Of a DNA stretch of 64,000 nt, positions 7,173-55,175 are shown one piece after another. Numbering within the stretch: the stretch's first letter is position 1; the number at the start of each line of letters is the position of its first letter. The stretch is taken from the NCBI GenBank assembly GCA_946534605.1, contig CAMNCU010000003.1, positions 954-64,953 on the forward strand, in the 5' to 3' direction. Source of the DNA: an uncultured Ruminococcus sp. (lineage in GTDB: Bacteria; Bacillota; Clostridia; Oscillospirales; Ruminococcaceae). The position numbers and the translations under genes were made by a program. Below the pieces are notes generated by a model, which was not told the DNA's origin, did no database searches, and saw only the letters and a program-made list of their open reading frames with translations.

Positions 7173-7922
7173 TTACAAGTCAATTTCCAGACCTACCGGA
7201 CAATGGTCGCTGCCCAGGATTTCCGGATAGATTTCCGCTTTGCTGATTTTATCTGCAATCCGGTTCGAGACAAGAAAATAATCGATTCTCCATCCGACAT
7301 TCCGGCTTCTTGCCTGATGCATGTATGACCACCATGTATAGGCATCTTTCTGGTCTGGATGCAGATACCGGAAAGAATCCGTAAATCCGGCAGATAATAA
7401 TTCTGTAAATTTTCCGCGTTCTTCGTTTGTGAATCCAGCGTTGCCGATATTCGCTTTGGGATGTTTCAGGTCAATTTCCTGATGCGCGACATTCATATCA
7501 CCGCAGATGATGACAGGCTTGTCCTTATCCAGTTCCTGCATGAACTTCCGGAAATCGCCTTCCCATTCCATACGGTATCCGAGCCGTGTCAGTTCACGCT
7601 GTGCGTTCGGAACGTAGATATTCACCAGCCGGAATTTTTCATATTCGGCGATGATGGTTCTGCCTTCATCAGTGTGAACTCCGTAATTGAATGTTACCTT
7701 CAGGGGCGTTTGTTTCGTGAACAGTGCCGTTCCGGAATAGCCCTTCTTGACTGCACTGTTGAAATACTGTTCATATCCGTCGAATTTTGTTGTCACCTGT
7801 TCCGGCTGCATTTTTGTTTCCTGAATGCAGAACATATCTGCATCAAGGGCTTTGAAGTGTGCTTCAAAACCCTTGTTCAGATTTGCCCGGAATCCGTTGA
7901 CATTCCATGAAATCAGTTTCAT
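7173..7922 (-). CDS. xth: Exodeoxyribonuclease III (AP endonuclease)
   Basis: 249 aa. Starts MKLISWNVNG, with CIQETK and GSDHCPVGLEI motifs typical of Xth/ExoA. Confidence 0.9.
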   Translation of the reverse strand: MKLISWNVNGFRANLNKGFEAHFKALDADMFCIQETKMQPEQVTTKFDGYEQYFNSAVKKGYSGTALFTKQTPLKVTFNYGVHTDEGRTIIAEYEKFRLVNIYVPNAQRELTRLGYRMEWEGDFRKFMQELDKDKPVIICGDMNVAHQEIDLKHPKANIGNAGFTNEERGKFTELLSAGFTDSFRYLHPDQKDAYTWWSYMHQARSRNVGWRIDYFLVSNRIADKISKAEIYPEILGSDHCPVGLEIDL

Positions 7923-8145: not shown

Positions 8146-9561
8146 TCAGGATTCCAAAAAGACCTTAAACGCTCTGTAAGCCGCCCAGACATCTGTTTTG
8201 GCAACGAGTTCATAAGGTGCATGCATCGACAGCACCGGAACGCCGATATCGATAGTATCAATATCCAGATTGGCGATATAAGCCGCAACAGTACCGCCGC
8301 CGCCAAGGTCAACTCTGCCGAGTTCTCCGGTCTGCCAGATAACGCCGCCGTCATCGAGAATTCTTCTGACTTCGCCGACGAATTCGGCAGAAGCATCAGA
8401 AGTACCGGATTTTCCTCTTGCGCCGGTGAATTTCGTCACGCAGACACCGTGATTCAGATACGCGCAGTTATTTCTTTCCAGAACTTCCGGGAAAGTGGGG
8501 TCAAACCCGGCATTGACATCGGCAGACAGGCATTTCGATGCGCTCATGACGGCTCTGCCGTTTGCACTGAAGCATTCCGCTAAATCGCAGAGGAAATATT
8601 TCAGATAAGAAGATTTCAGTCCGGTATTGCCGTCACTTCCGGTTTCTTCCTTATCGGTCAGGATAACAACGCTGGTATGTTCCGGCGCAGTAACAGACAG
8701 AGATGCCCGGAATGCCGGATAAGAACAAACTTTATCATCATGACCGTAAGCACCAATCAGGCTTCTGTCGAAGCCGACATCCTTTGCCTTGTAAGCCGGA
8801 ACAGCTTCCAGTTCGGCAGAGAGGAAATCTTCTTCGGTAATGCCGTATTTTTCGTTCAGTAATTTCATTAAGGCAAGCTTGACGAGTTCGTTTCCGTTAT
8901 CGGACTTGAACGGCATAGAACCGATAACAATATTCAGTTCTTCGCCTTTGATAATCTGCGGAGCGGTTCTTCTCATCTGTTCATCAGCGAGGTGCGGAAG
9001 CAGGTCAGTAATATAGAATACCGGGTCTTCTTCGTCTTCGCCGATGCGGACAGTTACTTTCGAGCCGTCCTTCTTCACGATAACGCCGTGCAGGGAAAGC
9101 GGTACGGTCGTCCACTGATATTTCTTGATTCCGCCGTAATAATGCGTCTTGAAATAGCCGATTTCCTGATTTTCATACAGCGGATGCTGTTTCATATCCA
9201 GACGGGGAGAATCAATATGTGCCGCACACAGACGAACGCCTTCGCGGATATCCGCTGTGCCGATGGTTGCCATAATAACGGCTTTTCCGCGGTTGTTGAG
9301 ATAAATTTTATCTCCGGGATGCAGCTTCATGCCGGGCTGAAATTCCTGATAGCCCTGTTTCTGAAGTTCATCAATTACAAAAGCATTGATTTCGCGTTCG
9401 GTCTTGGCAGTATTCATGAACGCCTTGTAATCTTCGCAGAACTTGTTGCAGGTCTGGAGTTCTAATTCGTCCATGCGCTGTGCGGCGTGTCTGTTCTGTG
9501 CGAACAGCTGTTCTTTCAGGGCTTTTACTTCATCTTTGGTTTTCTTAGGCATAGTAAACAC
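8146..9561 (-). CDS. M18-family aminopeptidase
   Basis: 471 aa with HIDSPRLD and other M18 (aspartyl aminopeptidase-like) signatures. Confidence 0.8.
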   Translation of the reverse strand: MFTMPKKTKDEVKALKEQLFAQNRHAAQRMDELELQTCNKFCEDYKAFMNTAKTEREINAFVIDELQKQGYQEFQPGMKLHPGDKIYLNNRGKAVIMATIGTADIREGVRLCAAHIDSPRLDMKQHPLYENQEIGYFKTHYYGGIKKYQWTTVPLSLHGVIVKKDGSKVTVRIGEDEEDPVFYITDLLPHLADEQMRRTAPQIIKGEELNIVIGSMPFKSDNGNELVKLALMKLLNEKYGITEEDFLSAELEAVPAYKAKDVGFDRSLIGAYGHDDKVCSYPAFRASLSVTAPEHTSVVILTDKEETGSDGNTGLKSSYLKYFLCDLAECFSANGRAVMSASKCLSADVNAGFDPTFPEVLERNNCAYLNHGVCVTKFTGARGKSGTSDASAEFVGEVRRILDDGGVIWQTGELGRVDLGGGGTVAAYIANLDIDTIDIGVPVLSMHAPYELVAKTDVWAAYRAFKVFLES

Positions 9562-29109: not shown

Positions 29110-31488
29110 ATGAAATTTCAAAAAATTGCCTGTTCTGTCACGGCATTCCTGCTAACAGCTGTCATGATGCCTGTTCCGGTACAGGCTGAGAACAAGCTTG
29201 TCGATTCCGGCATGAACTATCAGGAGAGTACCGAGACTATCAATAATCCGGGGGCTGGGTATACCAAAACTTTATGGTATAAGTGCAAGCCCGGTGAAAC
29301 TGCCGTCCAGAATCCGACCGGAAATCTGGTGCTGATGTTTATTGATATCGGGGCATTCTCTTCCGGCGCGAACGGAACTACTTCAACAGATGCCGACGGA
29401 AATGAAGTCTATACCGAAGGAACAGACTATGACCTTGATGAACAGTTTTTCACAGCCATGCGCGGAACGCTCGAAAACTGCCGGAAAAACGGCTCAACCG
29501 TTGCCGTCAGATTCCGCTATGATGCCAACGGCAAAACCAATCCTGAACCGGCAAGCTTTGAACAGGTGCTTCATCACATTCAGCAGATTAAAGAAAACGG
29601 CTTCCTGGAAGACTATAAAGATATTCTCATGTATGTCGAATCCGGCTTTGTCGGCGCATGGGGCGAACAGCACAGCGGAAAATATACCTCTCTGGAATAT
29701 AAAGCACAGCTTCTTGATGCGGTTCTGGATATGACTCCGGATGATATTCCCGTCACCGTCAGAACGCCGAATATCTTCGCGAAATGGGCTGGCATTGAAA
29801 CCAAAGACCTCGCGGACTGGGTTTCCGAACCCGGCAGTCAGGCTTCCAGAGTCGGTCTGTATAATGACGGCTATATGGGTTCTGATTCCGACCTCGGAAC
29901 GTATTCCAACAGAGAAATTGAAACGACATGGCTCGGCAGTCAGACCGTCAGAACCTACTACGGCGGAGAGTTCTCCGGCGCACTCGACTGGGCGAAAAAA
30001 TACGATACATGGGAACCACAGAACGCCATTCCCGAAATGTACAAGACCCATCTGAGCTATATCAATTCCAATATCTATACGATGTATCAGGACTATACGT
30101 TCGGTGAACAGTATGACGTTTCCGGCGTGGATAATTCGGCATATTACGGACAGACGGTCTTTAAGTTTATCCGTGACCATCTCGGCTATCGCTTTGTTGT
30201 CCGTGACTGTGACCTGAATCAGACCGCTGAACAGGGGAGTACATTCAATCTTGATTTTTCAGTTGAGAATACAGGCTTTGCAAATCCCATCCGACCGCAG
30301 AACGCTGAAATCATTCTCGAAAAAGACGGAAATTATGTCGTTCAGGATATTGACATTGATTCCCGTGAGTGGTATTCCTGCACGACTTCACAGGAGAATC
30401 TTGAAATTCAGGTTCCCGGCAATCTGGAAGCAGGGGAATGGAATGTTTATTTAAGGCTGTCTGTCGGGAATCAGGACATTCCGGACGGCAATTTAAGAAC
30501 TGTACAGTTCGCGAATCCAGATATCTGGAACGCTTCCCTCGGCGCGAACAAGATGGGTTCTGTTCAGATTACTGAAACAAAAGATTCTGTTAAGAAAGCA
30601 AATTATCAGTCTGATTTGTATACTTCCGGGAATGTTTTTATCTTTGACGGCATCCGTTCCAGTGATTCGGAATGGACGGAACAGAATCTTATCGCGGAAT
30701 CCGGAGAAAATAAACTCTACATGTCCGCAGATGACAAATATTTATATATCGGCGCGGAAGTACATCACAACGTCGAAAAGCCTGTCTGGAATCTTCGGTT
30801 GGAACATGACGGCGATTCCTACTGGATTTACTATCAGTCCGCCGGATGGTGCTACTATTCCAAAGGCGACGACCATACCGGCTTTGATTTCAAGAAAAGT
30901 GCTGATTTCGCAGAATTCAAGATTGATATGAGTTCTATGAATATCCAGTCCGGAACAGTTTTCGATAAAGTCAGAATCTTCGTGCAGGATGAGGGCGACG
31001 GCTGGAAGGGTGCCGGCGAACTTATCGCGGAAGGCTGTACGCTGAACAGCAGTTTTCCGGTATACTCGGCATATCAGAAAGTCTCTCTGAAAGAGCACCA
31101 GGAATATACCATGCAGGCGGTGACTTCTCTGGAGAATGTTTCTTATCAGTGGCTGAAAGACGGTGAGGAAATTTCCGGCGCGGACAGCAGAACGCTCACG
31201 CTGAAAGATATCAGTCAGGCATCAGCAGGGGACTACTCTGTCAAAATTACGGCTGAAAATGGTACAGCTCAGGAAATTTTATTATATACTGTTGAGAATG
31301 TCTATCCGGCGGAAGCTGTCCGGAAAGGCGATTTGAATGCTGACGGTGCTGTCGATATCAAAGATATCAAATTATTACAGGACTATCTGCACAAGCATGA
31401 AGTTAAGATTCAGGGTGATGCTGACATGAACGGTGACGGCATCTGGAATATCTATGACCTGATTTTATTAAAACGGAGCATTAAATAA
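29110..31488 (+). CDS. Dockerin-bearing putative glycoside hydrolase (DUF4874/DUF4832-like) with an Ig I-set-like domain
   Basis: Signal peptide. GFVGAWGEQH-type motif in the N-terminal TIM-barrel-like region. Ig-like segment YQWLKDGEEISGADSRTLTLKDISQASAGDYSVKITAENG. C-terminal dockerin GDLNADGAVDIKDIKLLQ...DMNGDGIWNIYDLILLKR. Confidence 0.55.
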   Translation: MKFQKIACSVTAFLLTAVMMPVPVQAENKLVDSGMNYQESTETINNPGAGYTKTLWYKCKPGETAVQNPTGNLVLMFIDIGAFSSGANGTTSTDADGNEVYTEGTDYDLDEQFFTAMRGTLENCRKNGSTVAVRFRYDANGKTNPEPASFEQVLHHIQQIKENGFLEDYKDILMYVESGFVGAWGEQHSGKYTSLEYKAQLLDAVLDMTPDDIPVTVRTPNIFAKWAGIETKDLADWVSEPGSQASRVGLYNDGYMGSDSDLGTYSNREIETTWLGSQTVRTYYGGEFSGALDWAKKYDTWEPQNAIPEMYKTHLSYINSNIYTMYQDYTFGEQYDVSGVDNSAYYGQTVFKFIRDHLGYRFVVRDCDLNQTAEQGSTFNLDFSVENTGFANPIRPQNAEIILEKDGNYVVQDIDIDSREWYSCTTSQENLEIQVPGNLEAGEWNVYLRLSVGNQDIPDGNLRTVQFANPDIWNASLGANKMGSVQITETKDSVKKANYQSDLYTSGNVFIFDGIRSSDSEWTEQNLIAESGENKLYMSADDKYLYIGAEVHHNVEKPVWNLRLEHDGDSYWIYYQSAGWCYYSKGDDHTGFDFKKSADFAEFKIDMSSMNIQSGTVFDKVRIFVQDEGDGWKGAGELIAEGCTLNSSFPVYSAYQKVSLKEHQEYTMQAVTSLENVSYQWLKDGEEISGADSRTLTLKDISQASAGDYSVKITAENGTAQEILLYTVENVYPAEAVRKGDLNADGAVDIKDIKLLQDYLHKHEVKIQGDADMNGDGIWNIYDLILLKRSIK

Positions 31489-33636: not shown

Positions 33637-33794
33637 GATAAAAACTCCTTTTTAAATTTTTTTGAAAATAGAATTCTTTGTTTATTCTAACACAAACAGC
33701 GAAAAATGTCAAGAGGGAGAAATATATTCAAACTTGCGCCAAATATCAATTTTGTGCAAGTTTGAACTGCAAATCTGCCGAAGCTTCAAAATAC

Positions 33795-52693: not shown

Positions 52694-53185
52694 TCAGGGT
52701 ATGTTGTCCAGTTTTGTGACATAAATCTGTGAGAGTTTCAGACCGCAGGCGACGGAGACTGTCTGGTAGACGATTTCCTGAACGGTCACCGCGCCGCCGC
52801 CCTCACAGGCGACGACGACACCCGTCACTGCCGGAAGCGATACCGATTCGACAAGGGCTTCCTTCTTCGTACCGCCGACGGTAACATAACGGTTCTGGGA
52901 ATCCTGTGCATAATGACAGGTCTCACTGCCGGAAAGCGTCACCAGAACTTCCGCTCTGCCGACACCGTCAATCTGACAGAGCATTGCTGAAAGTTCCTTC
53001 TGGAGTGCCGTCCGGTAGGCTTCCTGACTGGTGATTTCCGGAAGTTCTGCGGATTCCGGCGTTTCTTCCTGGCAGGACGACAGAACCGTGCAGAGAATCC
53101 CAATCAGCCCGATGAATACCAGAATATGCACCAGATATTCTTTTTTAAGGCTGGCTTTGTACCGATTCCAGAATTTCCGAAACAT
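52694..53185 (-). CDS. spoIIIAG: Stage III sporulation protein AG
   Basis: 163 aa with an N-terminal TM segment and the conserved C-terminus VTGVVVACEGGG...VSVACGLKLSQIYV. Confidence 0.8.
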   Translation of the reverse strand: MFRKFWNRYKASLKKEYLVHILVFIGLIGILCTVLSSCQEETPESAELPEITSQEAYRTALQKELSAMLCQIDGVGRAEVLVTLSGSETCHYAQDSQNRYVTVGGTKKEALVESVSLPAVTGVVVACEGGGAVTVQEIVYQTVSVACGLKLSQIYVTKLDNIP

Positions 53186-53600
53186 GAAGATTCACCCCCT
53201 CACCGAGCAGTTCCCGGAGCGTTCTGAGCGTCTGCTGAAAGTCGTCACAGGTCACACTGACATCACTAATAGATATGCAGTGATTCTCGTCAATATGCAG
53301 AGAAACGGAAATTTCGCTGCAGGAAATGCCCTTCTGCTCCAGAACGGAAGCAAGGGTCTGTTTTACGGTCTGTTCGGTGAGAGCGAGGGCGGTGCGGTCA
53401 GCCTGTGACTGCTGAACACTTCCCGGAATATCAGAGAATTCCGGACGGACAAACGCCGGAAGCAGGCTCACCAGAAACATCAGCGAAACCAGAAAGCGCA
53501 CCTGTTTCCGGAGTGCGTTTTCCGGACAGAGGAACAAGCAGACCGAGACGGCAATACTCAGCAGGCAGACGGTCAGCACGGAAGATTTCAGTGTTTCCAA
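53145..53600 (-). CDS. spoIIIAF: Stage III sporulation protein AF
   Basis: 151 aa from TTG 53600, 6 nt after AAAGGAG. Two N-terminal TM segments, as in SpoIIIAF. The track's ATG 53699 has no RBS and would translate a hairpin repeat. Confidence 0.65.
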   Translation of the reverse strand: METLKSSVLTVCLLSIAVSVCLFLCPENALRKQVRFLVSLMFLVSLLPAFVRPEFSDIPGSVQQSQADRTALALTEQTVKQTLASVLEQKGISCSEISVSLHIDENHCISISDVSVTCDDFQQTLRTLRELLGEGVNLHVSEILESVQSQP

Positions 53601-53628
53601 GTTTATCTCCTTTCTGGCTTGCACCTTT

Positions 53629-53751
53629 GTGAACAGATGAGAATCACCGTCAAGGGGCTGGCTTTTAAGCCCCTTGCGGTTATTCTTGTTCACACACATG
53701 TTTTACCGCAATATATTTCTATATATTATATAGCCACTTGCGGTAATTTTT
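53629..53751. repeat. Structured module A: long imperfect hairpin plus a second hairpin with an AT-palindrome loop and T-run
   Basis: Hairpin 53629..53693 (GTGAACA...TGTTCAC, with inner CAAGGGGCT / AGCCCCTTG). Hairpin TACCGCAA 53704..53711 / TTGCGGTA 53738..53745, whose loop contains CTATATATTATATAG, followed by ATTTTT. Confidence 0.6.
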
Positions 53752-53862
53752 GCGGCAATCCGGCGGCAGAGGGCGGCACGGCTGAACGCGCGTTCAAAAA
53801 TGAAAAATGTAAAGTCGACACGACAAAATCAGGGGGAAGATGCCCTTTTCTGGTTTTGCGTT

Positions 53863-53972
53863 TGTCAATGAACGAGCGGCAGGGTTACAGGGAACGGACT
53901 TTAAGTCCCCTGTTGCTCATTGACAGGGACAATATTTTTCTATATTATATAGGGTGATTTCCCTGTTTTTTT
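53863..53972. repeat. Structured module B (diverged copy of module A)
   Basis: Hairpin 53863..53925 (TGTCAATGA...TCATTGACA, inner ...GGACTTTAAGTCC...). Hairpin ACAGGGA 53923..53929 / TCCCTGT 53960..53966, whose loop contains CTATATTATATAG, followed by a T-run. Confidence 0.6.
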
Positions 53973-54013
53973 CCCTAGGCAGCAAAACAATACTAACTGA
54001 CCGGGAGAAAACT

Positions 54014-54156
54014 TGCGCAAAACGAAGATTTTGTGCAGTTCCTGAATACGGCTTCCACCCGGGTGGAAAAAACGTTCACCCGAGTGAACAGAATTTGTAA
54101 ACTCGAGTTTACAAAATGTTGAGTCGACTCAACAAAAATGTGACATCAATGTCACA
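54014..54156. repeat. Phased array of six different short palindromes/hairpins directly after the spoIIIAE stop
   Basis: 54014..54037 TGCGCAAAA-cgaaga-TTTTGTGCA. 54053..54068 TTCCACCCGGGTGGAA. 54074..54089 GTTCACCCGAGTGAAC. 54094..54115 TTTGTAAACTCGAGTTTACAAA. 54118..54133 GTTGAGTCGACTCAAC. 54139..54156 TGTGACATCAATGTCACA. Confidence 0.7.
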
Positions 54157-54164
54157 AAATCCCG

Positions 54165-55175
54165 TCATGTACTGCTCACCGCCGCCAGAATCCCCGTACT
54201 CACACAGAACATCACCCCGAATGAAGCCGAGACCGAAAACCCTACCGAAATCATCGCTTCCAGATTCCGGAACAGCCTCTGCAACGATTCCAGCGCGAAG
54301 ACTTCTGATACTGCCGCCGCTGTCCCCGTCAGTATCTTCCAGAGAAAAAATTCGATAATTATCGGCAGTAATATCGATAAGACCGCGATAACCCCCGTCA
54401 TCCCGGCAGTCGATTTCAGAACGTTCAGACTGCCCAGCACTGCCGCGTAAGCGTCCGATACTGCTCCCCCGACAAACGGCACAGCCCCGGCTATCGCGTA
54501 TTTCGCAGCTTTTGTTCCGGCTCTGTCCGCCGTTACGGAAACGACACTCTGCACTGACAGAAAGCCCAGAAACAACGCCATCAGAAAGCCAAGCACCCAG
54601 ACCGTGAACTTCTGAAACAGCGTCAGAATACCGTTCAGAGAGAGTTCCGGCGTGACTGCCTCCGTCAGACTGACTGCCAGTCCCATCGTCAGCACCGGAA
54701 ACAGCACCCGAACGGCGATTTCCAGCGCAAGATTACAGAGCAGCAGCACTGCCCCCTGATACCCTGCCGAAGCTGTCACATGTCCGCTGACCGCCAGAAT
54801 CCCCCCGAAGATTCCCGAGAAGGTCACCATAAAATCTGCCGAATGCGTCAGCACTTCCGCTGCCTGCTGAAAGGCTTCCGTCAGCGGACTGATGAGAATC
54901 CCCACCGCACACAGTACCGCTGTGACATCACAGATTTTTGAGATTCCGGATTTCTCGCTCCGGAGACTTCCGGCAAGCGCGGAAAGCAGAATCACCCCTG
55001 TGAGCAGTCCGAGCGTCTGCAAGGGCGCGGAAATCCGGTTCTGTACCATTTCCAGAACCTGTCCGGCGAATTCCGGAAGCTGTAATTCCGACAGCGATTC
55101 TGTATCGGGAATTTCCGCCGGCGCGTCTTCCAGAAGCGTTTTCAAAATTTCATCATAAGTATAGTCCTGATTCAC
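54165..55175 (-). CDS. spoIIIAE: Stage III sporulation protein AE
   Basis: 336 aa polytopic membrane protein, Gly/Ala-rich TM segments. Position and overlap with spoIIIAD match the operon order. Confidence 0.8.
   Translation of the reverse strand: MNQDYTYDEILKTLLEDAPAEIPDTESLSELQLPEFAGQVLEMVQNRISAPLQTLGLLTGVILLSALAGSLRSEKSGISKICDVTAVLCAVGILISPLTEAFQQAAEVLTHSADFMVTFSGIFGGILAVSGHVTASAGYQGAVLLLCNLALEIAVRVLFPVLTMGLAVSLTEAVTPELSLNGILTLFQKFTVWVLGFLMALFLGFLSVQSVVSVTADRAGTKAAKYAIAGAVPFVGGAVSDAYAAVLGSLNVLKSTAGMTGVIAVLSILLPIIIEFFLWKILTGTAAAVSEVFALESLQRLFRNLEAMISVGFSVSASFGVMFCVSTGILAAVSST

What the first reader, a model, noticed from the sequence alone, without database searches (positions are those of the whole stretch)
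54014..54156. Phased array of six different perfect palindromes (about 21-23 bp centre-to-centre) immediately after spoIIIAE
Five perfect or near-perfect palindromes with unrelated arm sequences follow one another:
- TTCCACCCGGGTGGAA (54053..54068)
- GTTCACCCGAGTGAAC (54074..54089)
- TTTGTAAACTCGAGTTTACAAA (54094..54115)
- GTTGAGTCGACTCAAC (54118..54133)
- TGTGACATCAATGTCACA (54139..54156)

A sixth hairpin precedes them at 54014..54037; its G-T pair would be a G-U wobble only on plus-strand RNA. Their centres lie at about 54060, 54081, 54104, 54125 and 54147, roughly two helical turns apart, and short A-rich spacers separate them.

Read in the operon sense (minus strand), several are hairpin + T-run: TGTGACA..TGTCACA-TTTTT, GTTGAG..CTCAAC-ATTTT and GTTCAC..GTGAAC-GTTTTTT. 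That would be a stack of weak intrinsic terminators directly after spoIIIAE. Alternatively, same-face spacing of dyad symmetries could be a protein-binding array, but five unrelated dyads would be unusual for that. Conservation of shape without conservation of sequence is the striking feature.
Basis: seen in the sequence. Interest (0 to 1): 0.62.

Follow-up and report, generated by a model that had tools for sequence, protein, structure and literature searches.

The report
Phage-type mini-palindrome array inside spoIIIA
The palindromes are real and belong to an apparently undescribed family of 18-bp perfect palindromes (fixed frame, variable arms) carried by rumen and gut phages and phage satellites; a piece of such phage DNA was inserted between two sporulation genes, and what the palindromes do is still unknown.

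Summary
Five perfect or near-perfect palindromes and one hairpin lie at the stated coordinates, 8 nt after the spoIIIAE stop codon. Five in 110 bp was never reached in 300 shuffles.

The arms are not unrelated. The units share one frame, TGT-N5-CG-N5'-ACA (18 bp); only the outer triplets and the central CpG are constant.

The segment is foreign. Relatives with AE at 69% identity or less have a 14-25 bp AE-AF junction. Only this small Ruminococcus lineage carries an insert: 565 bp here, 265 bp with one unit in UBA7014, and a third arrangement in run X3.

The rest of the insert is two iteron/AT-rich cassettes. One is a copy of the region just 3' of a phage primase-helicase gene, with the layout of a SaPI-type origin.

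The same palindrome family forms arrays of 1-7 units, each with different arms, in phage and satellite contigs, next to integrase, repressor and origin-like modules.

As terminators the units are weak (-5 to -7 kcal/mol). Their orientation is not tied to transcription across the family, and the symmetry runs through the centre. The best reading is DNA-level dyad elements of phage origin, passengers in spoIIIA that at most attenuate read-through. The mechanism is unresolved.

The parts
54139..54156 (.). Unit P5, TGTGACA-TCAA-TGTCACA. It follows the 18-bp frame. The same arms recur in satellite-like contigs L034 (centre CCGG) and L035/L121 (centre CCG).
54117..54134 (.). Unit P4, TGTTGAG-TCGA-CTCAACA, a perfect 18-bp palindrome. 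It appears unchanged in the relative seen in runs X3 and X16.
54094..54115 (.). Unit P3, a perfect 22-bp palindrome. The canonical 18-mer is 54096-54113, TGTAAAC-TCGA-GTTTACA. The same arms occur in L108 and L121.
54073..54090 (.). Unit P2, cGTTCAC-CCGA-GTGAACa. It keeps the same frame, but the outer triplet is off consensus.
54052..54069 (.). Unit P1, cTTCCAC-CCGG-GTGGAAa. It keeps the same frame, but the outer triplet is off consensus.
54014..54037 (.). Hairpin H, TGCGCAAAA-cgaaga-TTTTGTGCA, a different kind of hairpin with a 9-bp stem and a 6-nt loop. Its orthologue in UBA7014 lies directly after the AE stop codon. A related copy is at window 33728-33760.
53808..53825 (.). Decayed unit P', TGTAAAG-TCGA-CACGACA, with 3 arm mismatches. 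It is the positional orthologue of the single perfect unit TGTAGAA-TCGA-TTCTACA in UBA7014.
53860..53980 (-). Cassette B, a diverged origin-like module. It has CAGGGTT/CAGGGAA repeats, the hairpin GGGGACTtaaAGTCC, the AT-rich core ctatataatatag, and inverted TTCCCTG/TTCCCTA repeats. On the + strand it carries a sigma-70-like TTGACA-17-TATTAT at 53920-53948. The cassette is absent in the X3 relative.
53603..53775 (-). Cassette A, a copy of a phage intergenic region. It has CCGCAA repeats on both sides of the AT-rich core CTATATAATATATAG, a long imperfect hairpin (about 53628-53694), and the ribosome-binding site now used by spoIIIAF. Its 116-bp core is identical to the copy 3' of a phage primase-helicase gene (L027). 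It is 92.5% identical between species whose AE DNA is 79% identical.
54165..55175 (-). spoIIIAE coding sequence (336 aa).
53145..53602 (-). spoIIIAF. The likely true start is TTG at 53602-53600, after aaggag. The 184-aa call that starts at 53699 inside cassette A is probably an artefact.

Best explanation
What it is (well supported, about 0.85). The five palindromes, plus a decayed one at 53808-53825, belong to a family of 18-bp mini-palindromes with a fixed frame, TGT-N5-CG-N5'-ACA. Only the outer triplets and the central CpG (or its transition product CA/TG) are constant. The five positions in between differ from unit to unit but stay self-complementary.

The family lives in non-coding DNA of temperate phages and capsid-forming satellite-like elements from rumen and gut metagenomes. 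It occurs as arrays of 1-7 units with mostly 20-24 bp spacing, next to serine-integrase and repressor genes and next to iteron/AT-rich origin-like modules.

The window's array is one end of a 565-bp block of such phage-type non-coding DNA: two origin-like cassettes plus hairpins. That block was inserted between spoIIIAE and spoIIIAF in one small Ruminococcus lineage. Since then it has turned over quickly in unit number and arm sequence.

How it works (inferred, about 0.35). The units act as double-stranded DNA dyads, most likely as sites for a symmetric phage or satellite DNA-binding protein. That protein would read the outer TGT/ACA and the central CG but not the inner arms. Arm-to-arm templated correction (quasi-palindrome template switching) and exchange with phage copies would keep each unit a perfect palindrome while its sequence drifts.

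In spoIIIA the array is a passenger. Read in operon sense, the units form weak hairpin-plus-U signals that may attenuate transcription. They probably cannot stop it, because spoIIIAF-AH are intact and the gap shows no promoter of their own.
For: The insert is foreign and lineage-specific.
- Relatives with AE at 69% identity or less have AE-AF spacers of 14-25 bp.
- UBA7014 (AE 80% identical) has a 265-bp gap with one unit.
- Runs X3 and X16 show a third arrangement that lacks cassette B and carries different units.

The units form one family.
- A scanner found 53 perfect units with 37 different arms in the window, UBA7014, L034, L121/L035, L108, L107, L116 and L099. About one hit is expected by chance in 573 kb.
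- L108 has 7 units: the first five are exactly 21 bp apart, and the whole array lies between a LexA/S24-type repressor gene and a serine integrase gene.
- L035 has a 7-unit array, four tandem origin-like modules, then 2 more units, then int.
- L034 has 5 units between early ORFs.

The symmetry is at DNA level.
- The centre is self-complementary in 32 of 51 units.
- The central dinucleotide is CG in 37 of 51 and CA/TG in 13 of 51.
- Positions 8 and 11 are complementary in 45 of 51.
- There are almost no G-T pairs in the arms.

Units turn over quickly while staying symmetric.
- Two satellite-like contigs whose integrases are 97% identical differ by TCGA to ACGT in one unit and by CCAG/CTAG to TCGC/GCGA in another.
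- Window unit P5 (arms GACA) corresponds to arms GCAG in X3 (reconstructed from the listed differences).

The neighbouring cassettes are of phage origin.
- Cassette A lies between a PriCT_2+AAA_25 gene and rusA in L025, L027, L030 and L033.
- Its 116-bp core is identical to L027, and it has about double depth in the source genome.
- Its layout matches the SaPI origin description (PMC9371898).

The terminator potential is weak.
- Stems fold at -5.2 to -7.1 kcal/mol.
- There is no CATA on the operon strand of the gap and no sigma-70-like site on that strand.
Against: - No binding protein has been identified.
- The CI/Cro intergenic region of L034 shows no unit in the scans and, by eye, carries TATCA/TGATA-type repeats. 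The element's own repressor is therefore an unlikely partner.
- A protein that ignores the inner arms does not by itself explain why they stay complementary. The templated-correction step is inferred from general knowledge of quasi-palindrome mutagenesis and was not shown here.
- In the window, UBA7014 and L108, the U-rich flank follows the hairpins on the strand of the upstream gene. That fits a terminator or attenuator role at those three loci.
- Only about eight contigs carry the family, so the statistics rest on few independent lineages.
- L116 and L099 are GC-rich and may be a separate phenomenon.
- No transcript or 3'-end data exist.
Confidence: 0.5

Rival explanations
1. A stack of weak intrinsic terminators or attenuators. 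Each unit is an RNA hairpin followed by a U-tract on the spoIIIA strand. Together they lower read-through from AA-AE into AF-AH, or protect the 3' end of the AA-AE transcript. The arms differ so that tandem copies do not recombine.
For: - Four of the five units have 5-7 U in the 8 nt after the stem on the - strand.
- The single unit in UBA7014 is followed by TTTTT in operon sense.
- In L108 the 7-unit array follows a repressor gene, with TTTT spacers in gene sense, ahead of int.
- The terminator-like count in this region is 11, against 2.3 expected.
Against: - Stems fold at only -5 to -7 kcal/mol.
- The family has no fixed orientation: the flank classes are A/A 7, T/T 7, T/A 6 and A/T 3.
- The L034 array at 8947-9107 sits between ORFs of one operon with A-rich 3' flanks.
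- The strict 7+4+7 geometry, the invariant TGT/ACA and the self-complementary CG centre are not needed for termination.
- No promoter is visible for AF-AH on the operon strand.
Confidence: 0.2
2. Single-stranded hairpin signals. A perfect palindrome gives the same hairpin on both strands. These hairpins would be recognised at the foot (TGT/ACA) and the tip. Examples are priming or loading sites used with the neighbouring origin-like modules, as ssiA/ssiB are in IncQ oriV, or RNA-processing sites in phage transcripts.
For: - Base pairing is the simplest reason for variable but complementary arms.
- The arrays flank origin-like modules in L035, L034 and the window.
- The helicase part of the phage initiator is most similar to the RSF1010 RepA helicase (1g8y, E 1e-5).
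- That IncQ origins combine iterons, an AT-rich region and hairpin ssi sites is my own recollection, not something checked here.
Against: - Complementarity of positions 8 and 11 next to a 2-nt centre (45 of 51 units) is useless in a hairpin, which needs a loop of at least 3 nt.
- The replication-module phage loci L025 and L027 have no units.
- Some arrays lie far from any origin-like module, such as L034 8947-9107 and the one upstream of the terminase genes in L107.
Confidence: 0.12
3. Functionless, self-perpetuating palindromic repeats. The units would be small foldback sequences that spread and turn over by recombination and template switching among phages. They would be kept perfect by mutational symmetrisation alone. 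In spoIIIA they would be a neutral relic.
For: - Units turn over quickly and differ in number between close relatives.
- The unit between the two cassettes has decayed.
- Similar repeats in Cluster O mycobacteriophages are associated with insertions and deletions and have no known function (PMC4351075).
Against: - TGT/ACA is invariant by the definition of the scan, so that is circular. The central CG and the exact 18-bp length are independent of the scan, however, and are strongly conserved across contigs of 46-61% GC.
- At the roughly 20% DNA divergence of the flanking genes, neutral arms should carry mismatches. Yet 5 of the 6 units after AE are perfect.
Confidence: 0.18

Closest known systems
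17-bp dyad repeats of Cluster O mycobacteriophages (5'-TGTTCGGNNNCCGAACA; PMC4351075)
   Same: - Two 7-bp inverted arms that begin with TGT and end with ACA, around a 3-nt centre.
- Dozens of copies, mostly in short intergenic regions of a phage genome.
- No clear orientation relative to transcription.
- Recombination between copies linked to insertions and deletions.
- Function unknown; dimeric regulators were suggested.
   Different: - There the arms are invariant within a genome and the centre is A/T-rich.
- Here almost every unit has different arms (37 kinds in 53 units), the centre is N-CG-N', and the units form tight arrays.
Clusters of Rho-independent terminators
   Same: A short stem, a 4-nt tip and a U-tract on the spoIIIA strand for 4 of the 5 units, placed right after a stop codon.
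   Different: Very weak A/U-rich stem bases, fixed geometry, a self-complementary centre, no consistent orientation across the family, and no downstream promoter.
REP/BIME elements of enterobacteria and pseudomonads
   Same: Arrays of short palindromic units in intergenic regions within operons. Their effects on termination and mRNA stability are modest and secondary.
   Different: REPs are imperfect, share one sequence per genome, carry a GTAG head and occur hundreds of times per chromosome. Here there is one locus in 64 kb, perfect units, all different, and of phage origin.
Tandem dyad operator or iteron arrays (four 19-bp dyad iterons of ori-lambda; paired 18-bp ARG boxes)
   Same: Dyads of 18-19 bp spaced about two helical turns apart, with A-tract spacers, next to an AT-rich region.
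   Different: In those arrays all units match one consensus read by one protein. Here only 3+2+3 positions are shared.
Integron attC sites
   Same: Structure is conserved while sequence is not: the outer triplets are conserved, and the interior is variable but complementary.
   Different: attC sites are 57-141 bp, imperfect, have extrahelical bases and come with a tyrosine integrase and cassettes. None of these is present here.
SaPI-type replication origin (this comparison is for the flanking cassettes, not the palindromes)
   Same: Short repeats on both sides of an AT-rich centre in opposite orientation, immediately 3' of a fused primase-helicase gene (PMC9371898).
   Different: Cassette A has few repeats and only a 26-bp AT-rich core. 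Replication was not tested. The satellite-like contigs carry three or four such modules in tandem with different repeats, which I have not seen described.

Membership tests
Rho-independent terminator | Stem-loop followed at once by a U-tract on the transcribed strand | tested here: met
   On the - strand, P5, P4, P3 and P2 have 7, 5, 5 and 6 U in the next 8 nt; P1 has 3.
Rho-independent terminator | Stable, G+C-rich stem (typical terminators are much stronger than about -8 kcal/mol; general knowledge) | tested here: not met
   MFE is -5.2 to -7.1 kcal/mol, with 3 G-C pairs per 7-bp stem.
Rho-independent terminator | Orientation tied to the direction of transcription wherever the element occurs | tested here: not met
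   The flank classes across 53 units are A/A 7, T/T 7, T/A 6 and A/T 3. The L034 array lies inside an operon with A-rich 3' flanks.
Rho-independent terminator | Transcript 3' ends at the site | not testable with these tools
   No RNA run holds the stretch.
Cluster O-type phage dyad repeats | Two 7-bp inverted arms, TGT... and ...ACA, around a short centre | tested here: met
   7+4+7 in 51 units and 7+3+7 in 2 units.
Cluster O-type phage dyad repeats | Arms invariant among copies | tested here: not met
   37 different arms in 53 units; all five in the window differ.
Cluster O-type phage dyad repeats | Many copies in phage non-coding DNA | tested here: met
   13 units in the 8.6-kb L121, 8 perfect units plus imperfect or off-frame ones in the 14-kb L034, and 6-7 in L108 and L107.
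REP/BIME | High copy number across the host chromosome with one shared sequence | tested here: not met
   In the 64-kb window the frame occurs only in the gap.
parS (ParB site) | 16-bp TGTTNCACGTGAAACA | tested here: not met
   The outer TGT/ACA and the central CG are shared, but the units are 18 bp with variable arms.
Single-protein tandem operator or iteron array | All units match one consensus half-site | tested here: not met
   Only the positions TGT, CG and ACA are shared.
SaPI-type origin (cassettes A and B) | Short repeats on both sides of an AT-rich centre, in opposite orientation | tested here: met
   - Cassette A: CCGCAA twice, then the AT core, then TTGCGG (operon sense).
- Cassette B: CAGGG twice, then the AT core, then CCCTG/CCCTA.
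- L035 modules M1-M3: three direct plus two inverted repeats (definition from PMC9371898).
SaPI-type origin (cassettes A and B) | Located immediately 3' of the initiator (primase-helicase) gene | tested here: met
   True in the phage loci L025, L027, L030 and L033. It is not true at spoIIIA, where the cassette is a displaced copy.
SaPI-type origin (cassettes A and B) | Initiator binding and initiator-dependent replication | not testable with these tools
   This needs EMSA and a two-plasmid replication assay.

The most novel reading that the evidence does not exclude
The two kinds of array seen together would be a multi-specificity docking platform. One kind is the tandem origin-like modules, which share a layout but carry different repeats. 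The other is the tandem palindromes, which share a frame but have different arms.

A satellite that appears to lack its own initiator would carry one origin per possible helper-phage initiator and one dyad per possible helper regulator. It could then plug into, or titrate, several different helper phages.

The fragment stranded in spoIIIA still holds an origin core identical to that of a prophage-type copy in the same genome. Induction of that phage could therefore fire replication or antisense transcription inside the sporulation operon.
Probability: 0.08. Interest if true: 0.85.

Novelty: new variant of a known kind. Interest (0 to 1): 0.66.

Why it matters
Short dyad repeats scattered through phage genomes are known, but their function is not understood. 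This family adds a sharper puzzle: the length, the outer triplets and the central CpG are fixed, while the arms change freely yet stay perfectly symmetric, even between elements whose integrases are 97% identical.

Whatever reads or makes these units must tolerate any inner sequence while something keeps that sequence symmetric. That requirement narrows the possible mechanisms and can be tested with simple binding and mutation-accumulation experiments.

The locus also shows that phage regulatory or origin DNA, without any gene, can be inserted into the middle of an essential sporulation operon and kept there. One cassette is more conserved than the flanking genes.

Finally, the satellite-like contigs with three or four tandem origin-like modules suggest a way for satellites to exploit several helper phages.

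Tried and rejected
- **Rfam scan.** A scan of 53500-54400 at E up to 10 gave only chance-level hits.
- **Other copies in the window.** BLAST and pattern searches found no other copy of the cassette or units. They found only a related H-type hairpin at 33728-33760.
- **Isolate phage genomes.** INPHARED searches with the gap and with the L034 region gave no match.
- **RNA data.** No run holds the stretch.
- **Small ORFs or a type I toxin in the gap.** I found only 10-11-codon ORFs and a 48-aa ORF without a ribosome-binding site, so I rejected this by reading the sequence.
- **Assembly artefact.** Rejected, because two independent assemblies are identical.
- **Doublet pattern with TCGA centres in viral contigs.** This returned only L028, which has direct repeats, not palindromes.
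- **Relatives of the L035 HTH protein.** None were close.
- **Integrase homologues at 62% identity.** They have no units upstream.
- **Hybrid units as proof of site-specific recombination.** The L034 unit at 7443 differs from either putative parent by a single base, so I withdrew the argument. Only window P' (3 mismatches) might be a hybrid.
- **Operators of the element's own CI/Cro.** Unlikely. The unit scans found none in the CI-Cro intergenic region of L034, and by eye that region has TATCA/TGATA-type repeats.
- **Serine-integrase att sites.** Rejected on general knowledge: those sites are 40-50 bp with a non-palindromic central dinucleotide.
- **parS, ARG boxes, CRP and ComR boxes.** Single units resemble some of these, but the array as a whole does not.
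- **Shared protein family among array-bearing contigs.** None was found beyond the L034/L121 pair.
- **Second viral scan with an ATGT start.** It added no new array.
- **Literature searches.** They found no description of a variable-arm family.

Full report
**Observation**

Their centres are 21, 23, 21 and 22 bp apart. Three units are perfect to the centre: 16, 22 and 18 bp. The other two have perfect arms around CCGA and TCAA.

A cluster of five perfect 6+4+6 hairpins within 110 bp never arose in 300 dinucleotide-preserving shuffles of the window. The largest cluster was 2 or fewer in 297 shuffles. The stretch is identical in an NCBI MAG and in a Logan assembly of a different run, so it is not an assembly artefact.

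The hairpin at 54014-54037 is more stable on the + strand (-9.4 against -7.1 kcal/mol) because of the G-T pair.

**Setting**

The - strand carries spoIIIAA-AB-AC-AD-AE, then a gap, then AF-AG-AH, asp23 and nusB (Pfam). AE ends at 54165. AF most likely starts at TTG 53602, after aaggag. That start matches the N-termini of orthologues. The gap is therefore about 565 bp.

In four more distant relatives (AE 62-69% identical), AE and AF are 14-25 bp apart. Only two AE clusters carry an insert:
- the window species;
- Ruminococcus sp. UBA7014 (AE 80% identical; nine assemblies, essentially identical), which has 265 bp with hairpin H, one unit (TGTAGAATCGATTCTACA) and one cassette.

Contigs of two 2025 runs (X3, X16) show a third version. 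It lacks 53798-53975, replaces units P1-P3 with one imperfect unit, and changes the arms of P5. From the listed indels, P5 reads TGTGCAGTCGACTGCACA. The insert is thus lineage-specific and changes quickly.

**The units are one family**

Units 3-5, the decayed unit at 53808-53825 and the UBA7014 unit all fit TGT-N4-TCGA-N4'-ACA. Units 1-2 fit the same 18-bp frame.

A scan of everything fetched for perfect TGT-N4-(3-4 nt)-N4'-ACA found hits almost only in a few places:
- the two spoIIIA gaps;
- L034, a metagenome contig;
- L035/L121, L108, L107, L116 and L099, which are IMG/VR contigs.

Pooled, this gives 53 units with 37 different arms:
- The centre is self-complementary in 32 of 51 four-base centres: TCGA 12, CCGG 12, ACGT 4, GCGC 4.
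- The central dinucleotide is CG in 37 and CA/TG in 13. Every such variant is one transition away from a CG centre.
- Positions 8 and 11 are complementary in 45 of 51.

The ideal unit is therefore a perfect 18-bp palindrome, TGT-N5-CG-N5'-ACA. G-T pairs in the arms are almost absent.

Some arms recur in unrelated contigs with different centres. TGTGACA occurs in the window, L034 and L121. TGTAAAC occurs in the window, L108 and L121.

Two satellite-like contigs whose integrases are 97% identical differ by a symmetric TCGA to ACGT change in one unit and by new arms in the other.

**Where the family lives**

- **L108.** A LexA/S24-type repressor gene ends. Seven units follow, the first five exactly 21 bp apart. 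Then comes a serine integrase gene.
- **L035/L121.** A Cro/CI-type gene is followed by a 7-unit array, then four tandem modules, then two units, then the integrase gene. Each module has three direct repeats, about 58 bp of AT-rich DNA and two inverted repeats. The repeat sequence differs in each module.
- **L034.** This is a relative of L035/L121. It has further arrays between early ORFs and just upstream of ribosome-binding sites.
- **L034 and L121 together.** They encode an integrase, CI, Cro, a head scaffold, a major head protein and a sigma-like protein. No replication gene was seen. This looks like a capsid-forming satellite, but that classification is an inference.
- **L107.** It has seven or more units upstream of what look like terminase genes, judged by position and N-terminal sequence only.

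**The rest of the gap**

The gap is a tandem pair of related cassettes.

*Cassette A (53603-53775).*
- It is 92.5% identical to the UBA7014 copy, although AE and AF DNA are only 79% and 82% identical.
- The same cassette lies between a 744-aa PriCT_2+AAA_25 gene and rusA in phage-like contigs L025, L027, L030 and L033.
- Its 116-bp core is identical to L027.
- In the source genome, depth over it is roughly doubled. Loose ends there match the L027 flanks.
- Homology runs from the cassette, preceded in UBA7014 by 17 nt of the initiator gene's 3' end, to the rusA ribosome-binding site, which now serves spoIIIAF.
- Its layout is CCGCAA twice, an AT-rich palindromic core, then an inverted TTGCGG, immediately 3' of a fused primase-helicase gene. 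That matches the published description of SaPI origins (PMC9371898).

*Cassette B.* It is a diverged module of the same design, with CAGGG-type repeats.

Both cassettes carry sigma-70-like promoters on the + strand, antisense to spoIIIA. The best is TTGACA-17-TATTAT, an 11/12 match. In L034 and L035 the corresponding strand of cassette A points through two palindromes into the integrase gene.

**Function**

*Against a dedicated terminator stack:*
- The stems are weak.
- Orientation is not tied to transcription across the family.
- The centre is symmetric, which a loop does not need.
- The operon strand of the gap has no sigma-70-like site and no CATA motif. CATA is the core of the sigma-E, -G and -K -10 elements known from Bacillus, so the intact AF-AH genes appear to rely on read-through.

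*For some attenuation at this locus:* U-tracts follow four of the five hairpins in operon sense. The same holds in UBA7014 and, in gene sense, in L108.

*Against a pure RNA or single-strand hairpin model:* positions 8 and 11 are complementary next to a 2-nt centre.

*Against a classical one-protein operator array:* the arms all differ, and the likely CI/Cro operators in L034 look different.

I therefore favour double-stranded dyad elements read at TGT/ACA and at the central CG, kept perfect by arm-to-arm templated correction and by exchange with phage copies. In spoIIIA they would act only as passengers or mild attenuators. The family membership and the foreign origin are shown. The binding protein and the correction step are inferred.

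**Comparison with known systems**

The nearest described thing is the 17-bp repeat TGTTCGGNNNCCGAACA of Cluster O mycobacteriophages. It has the same arm length and the same outer triplets. It is mostly intergenic, is linked to insertions and deletions, and has no known function (PMC4351075). There the arms are invariant; here they are not.

REP/BIME elements, lambda origin iterons and ARG boxes, integron attC sites and parS each share one or two features. Each fails a defining feature; the membership table gives the details.

**Caveats**

- The family rests on about eight contigs.
- TGT/ACA is part of the search pattern, so its invariance is circular. The CG centre, the centre symmetry and the exact length are not part of the pattern.
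- The GC-rich contigs L116 and L099 may be unrelated.
- The X3 sequence is reconstructed from difference tables.
- No expression or binding data exist.

Noticed in passing
window 53603-53775 (cassette A) and 53860-53980 (cassette B): There are two origin-like cassettes inside the spoIIIA operon. Cassette A is a displaced copy of the region 3' of a phage primase-helicase gene. Its 116-bp core is identical to a second copy in the same genome, and it is more conserved between species (92.5%) than the flanking genes (79-82%).
   Followed up: yes
L035 1570-2100; L034 6780-7200: The satellite-like contigs carry three or four tandem origin-like modules. The layout is the same in each, but the repeat differs: GGAGGGTT, GCAGGGTT, GACGGGTT, CCGCAA, and CAGAGGGTT in L034. 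No replication gene was seen on the contigs. This may be a multi-helper origin array.
   Followed up: partly
window 53920-53948 and 53689-53729, + strand: Strong sigma-70-like promoters (TTGACA-17-TATTAT, 11/12 match) point antisense to spoIIIA, through the palindromes into the 3' end of spoIIIAE. A terminator-like hairpin on the + strand at 53831-53848 follows the first one. Antisense transcription of the sporulation operon is possible but untested.
   Followed up: partly
window 53600-53699: Gene callers extend spoIIIAF by 33 codons into cassette A (184 aa from ATG 53699). The orthologue N-termini and the aaggag site point to TTG 53602. The same in-frame extension artefact occurs upstream of rusA in L027.
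   Followed up: partly
window 33728-33760: A hairpin, ACTTGCGC...GTGCAAGT, is related to hairpin H of the gap, with the same G-T wobble on the + strand. It lies in a divergent intergenic region just upstream of a TTGACA-17-TATAAT promoter.
   Followed up: no
window 30497-30529: Two adjacent perfect 14-bp palindromes, GAACTGTACAGTTC and TCCAGATATCTGGA, lie 19 bp apart. By eye they look to be in coding sequence (not checked) and unrelated to the TGT...ACA family.
   Followed up: no
all units: Every non-CG centre (TCAA/TTGA, ACAT/ATGT, CCAG, GCAC, CCAA) is one C-to-T transition away from a CG centre. That is the pattern expected if the central cytosine is methylated.
   Followed up: no
L034 1965-4769: A 934-aa PHP + SMC/AAA protein lies next to the satellite's integrase in a low-GC block. 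It has weak similarity to the SbcC-like subunit of the palindrome-specific endonuclease (PHROG E 5e-4). It may be a defence cargo gene.
   Followed up: no
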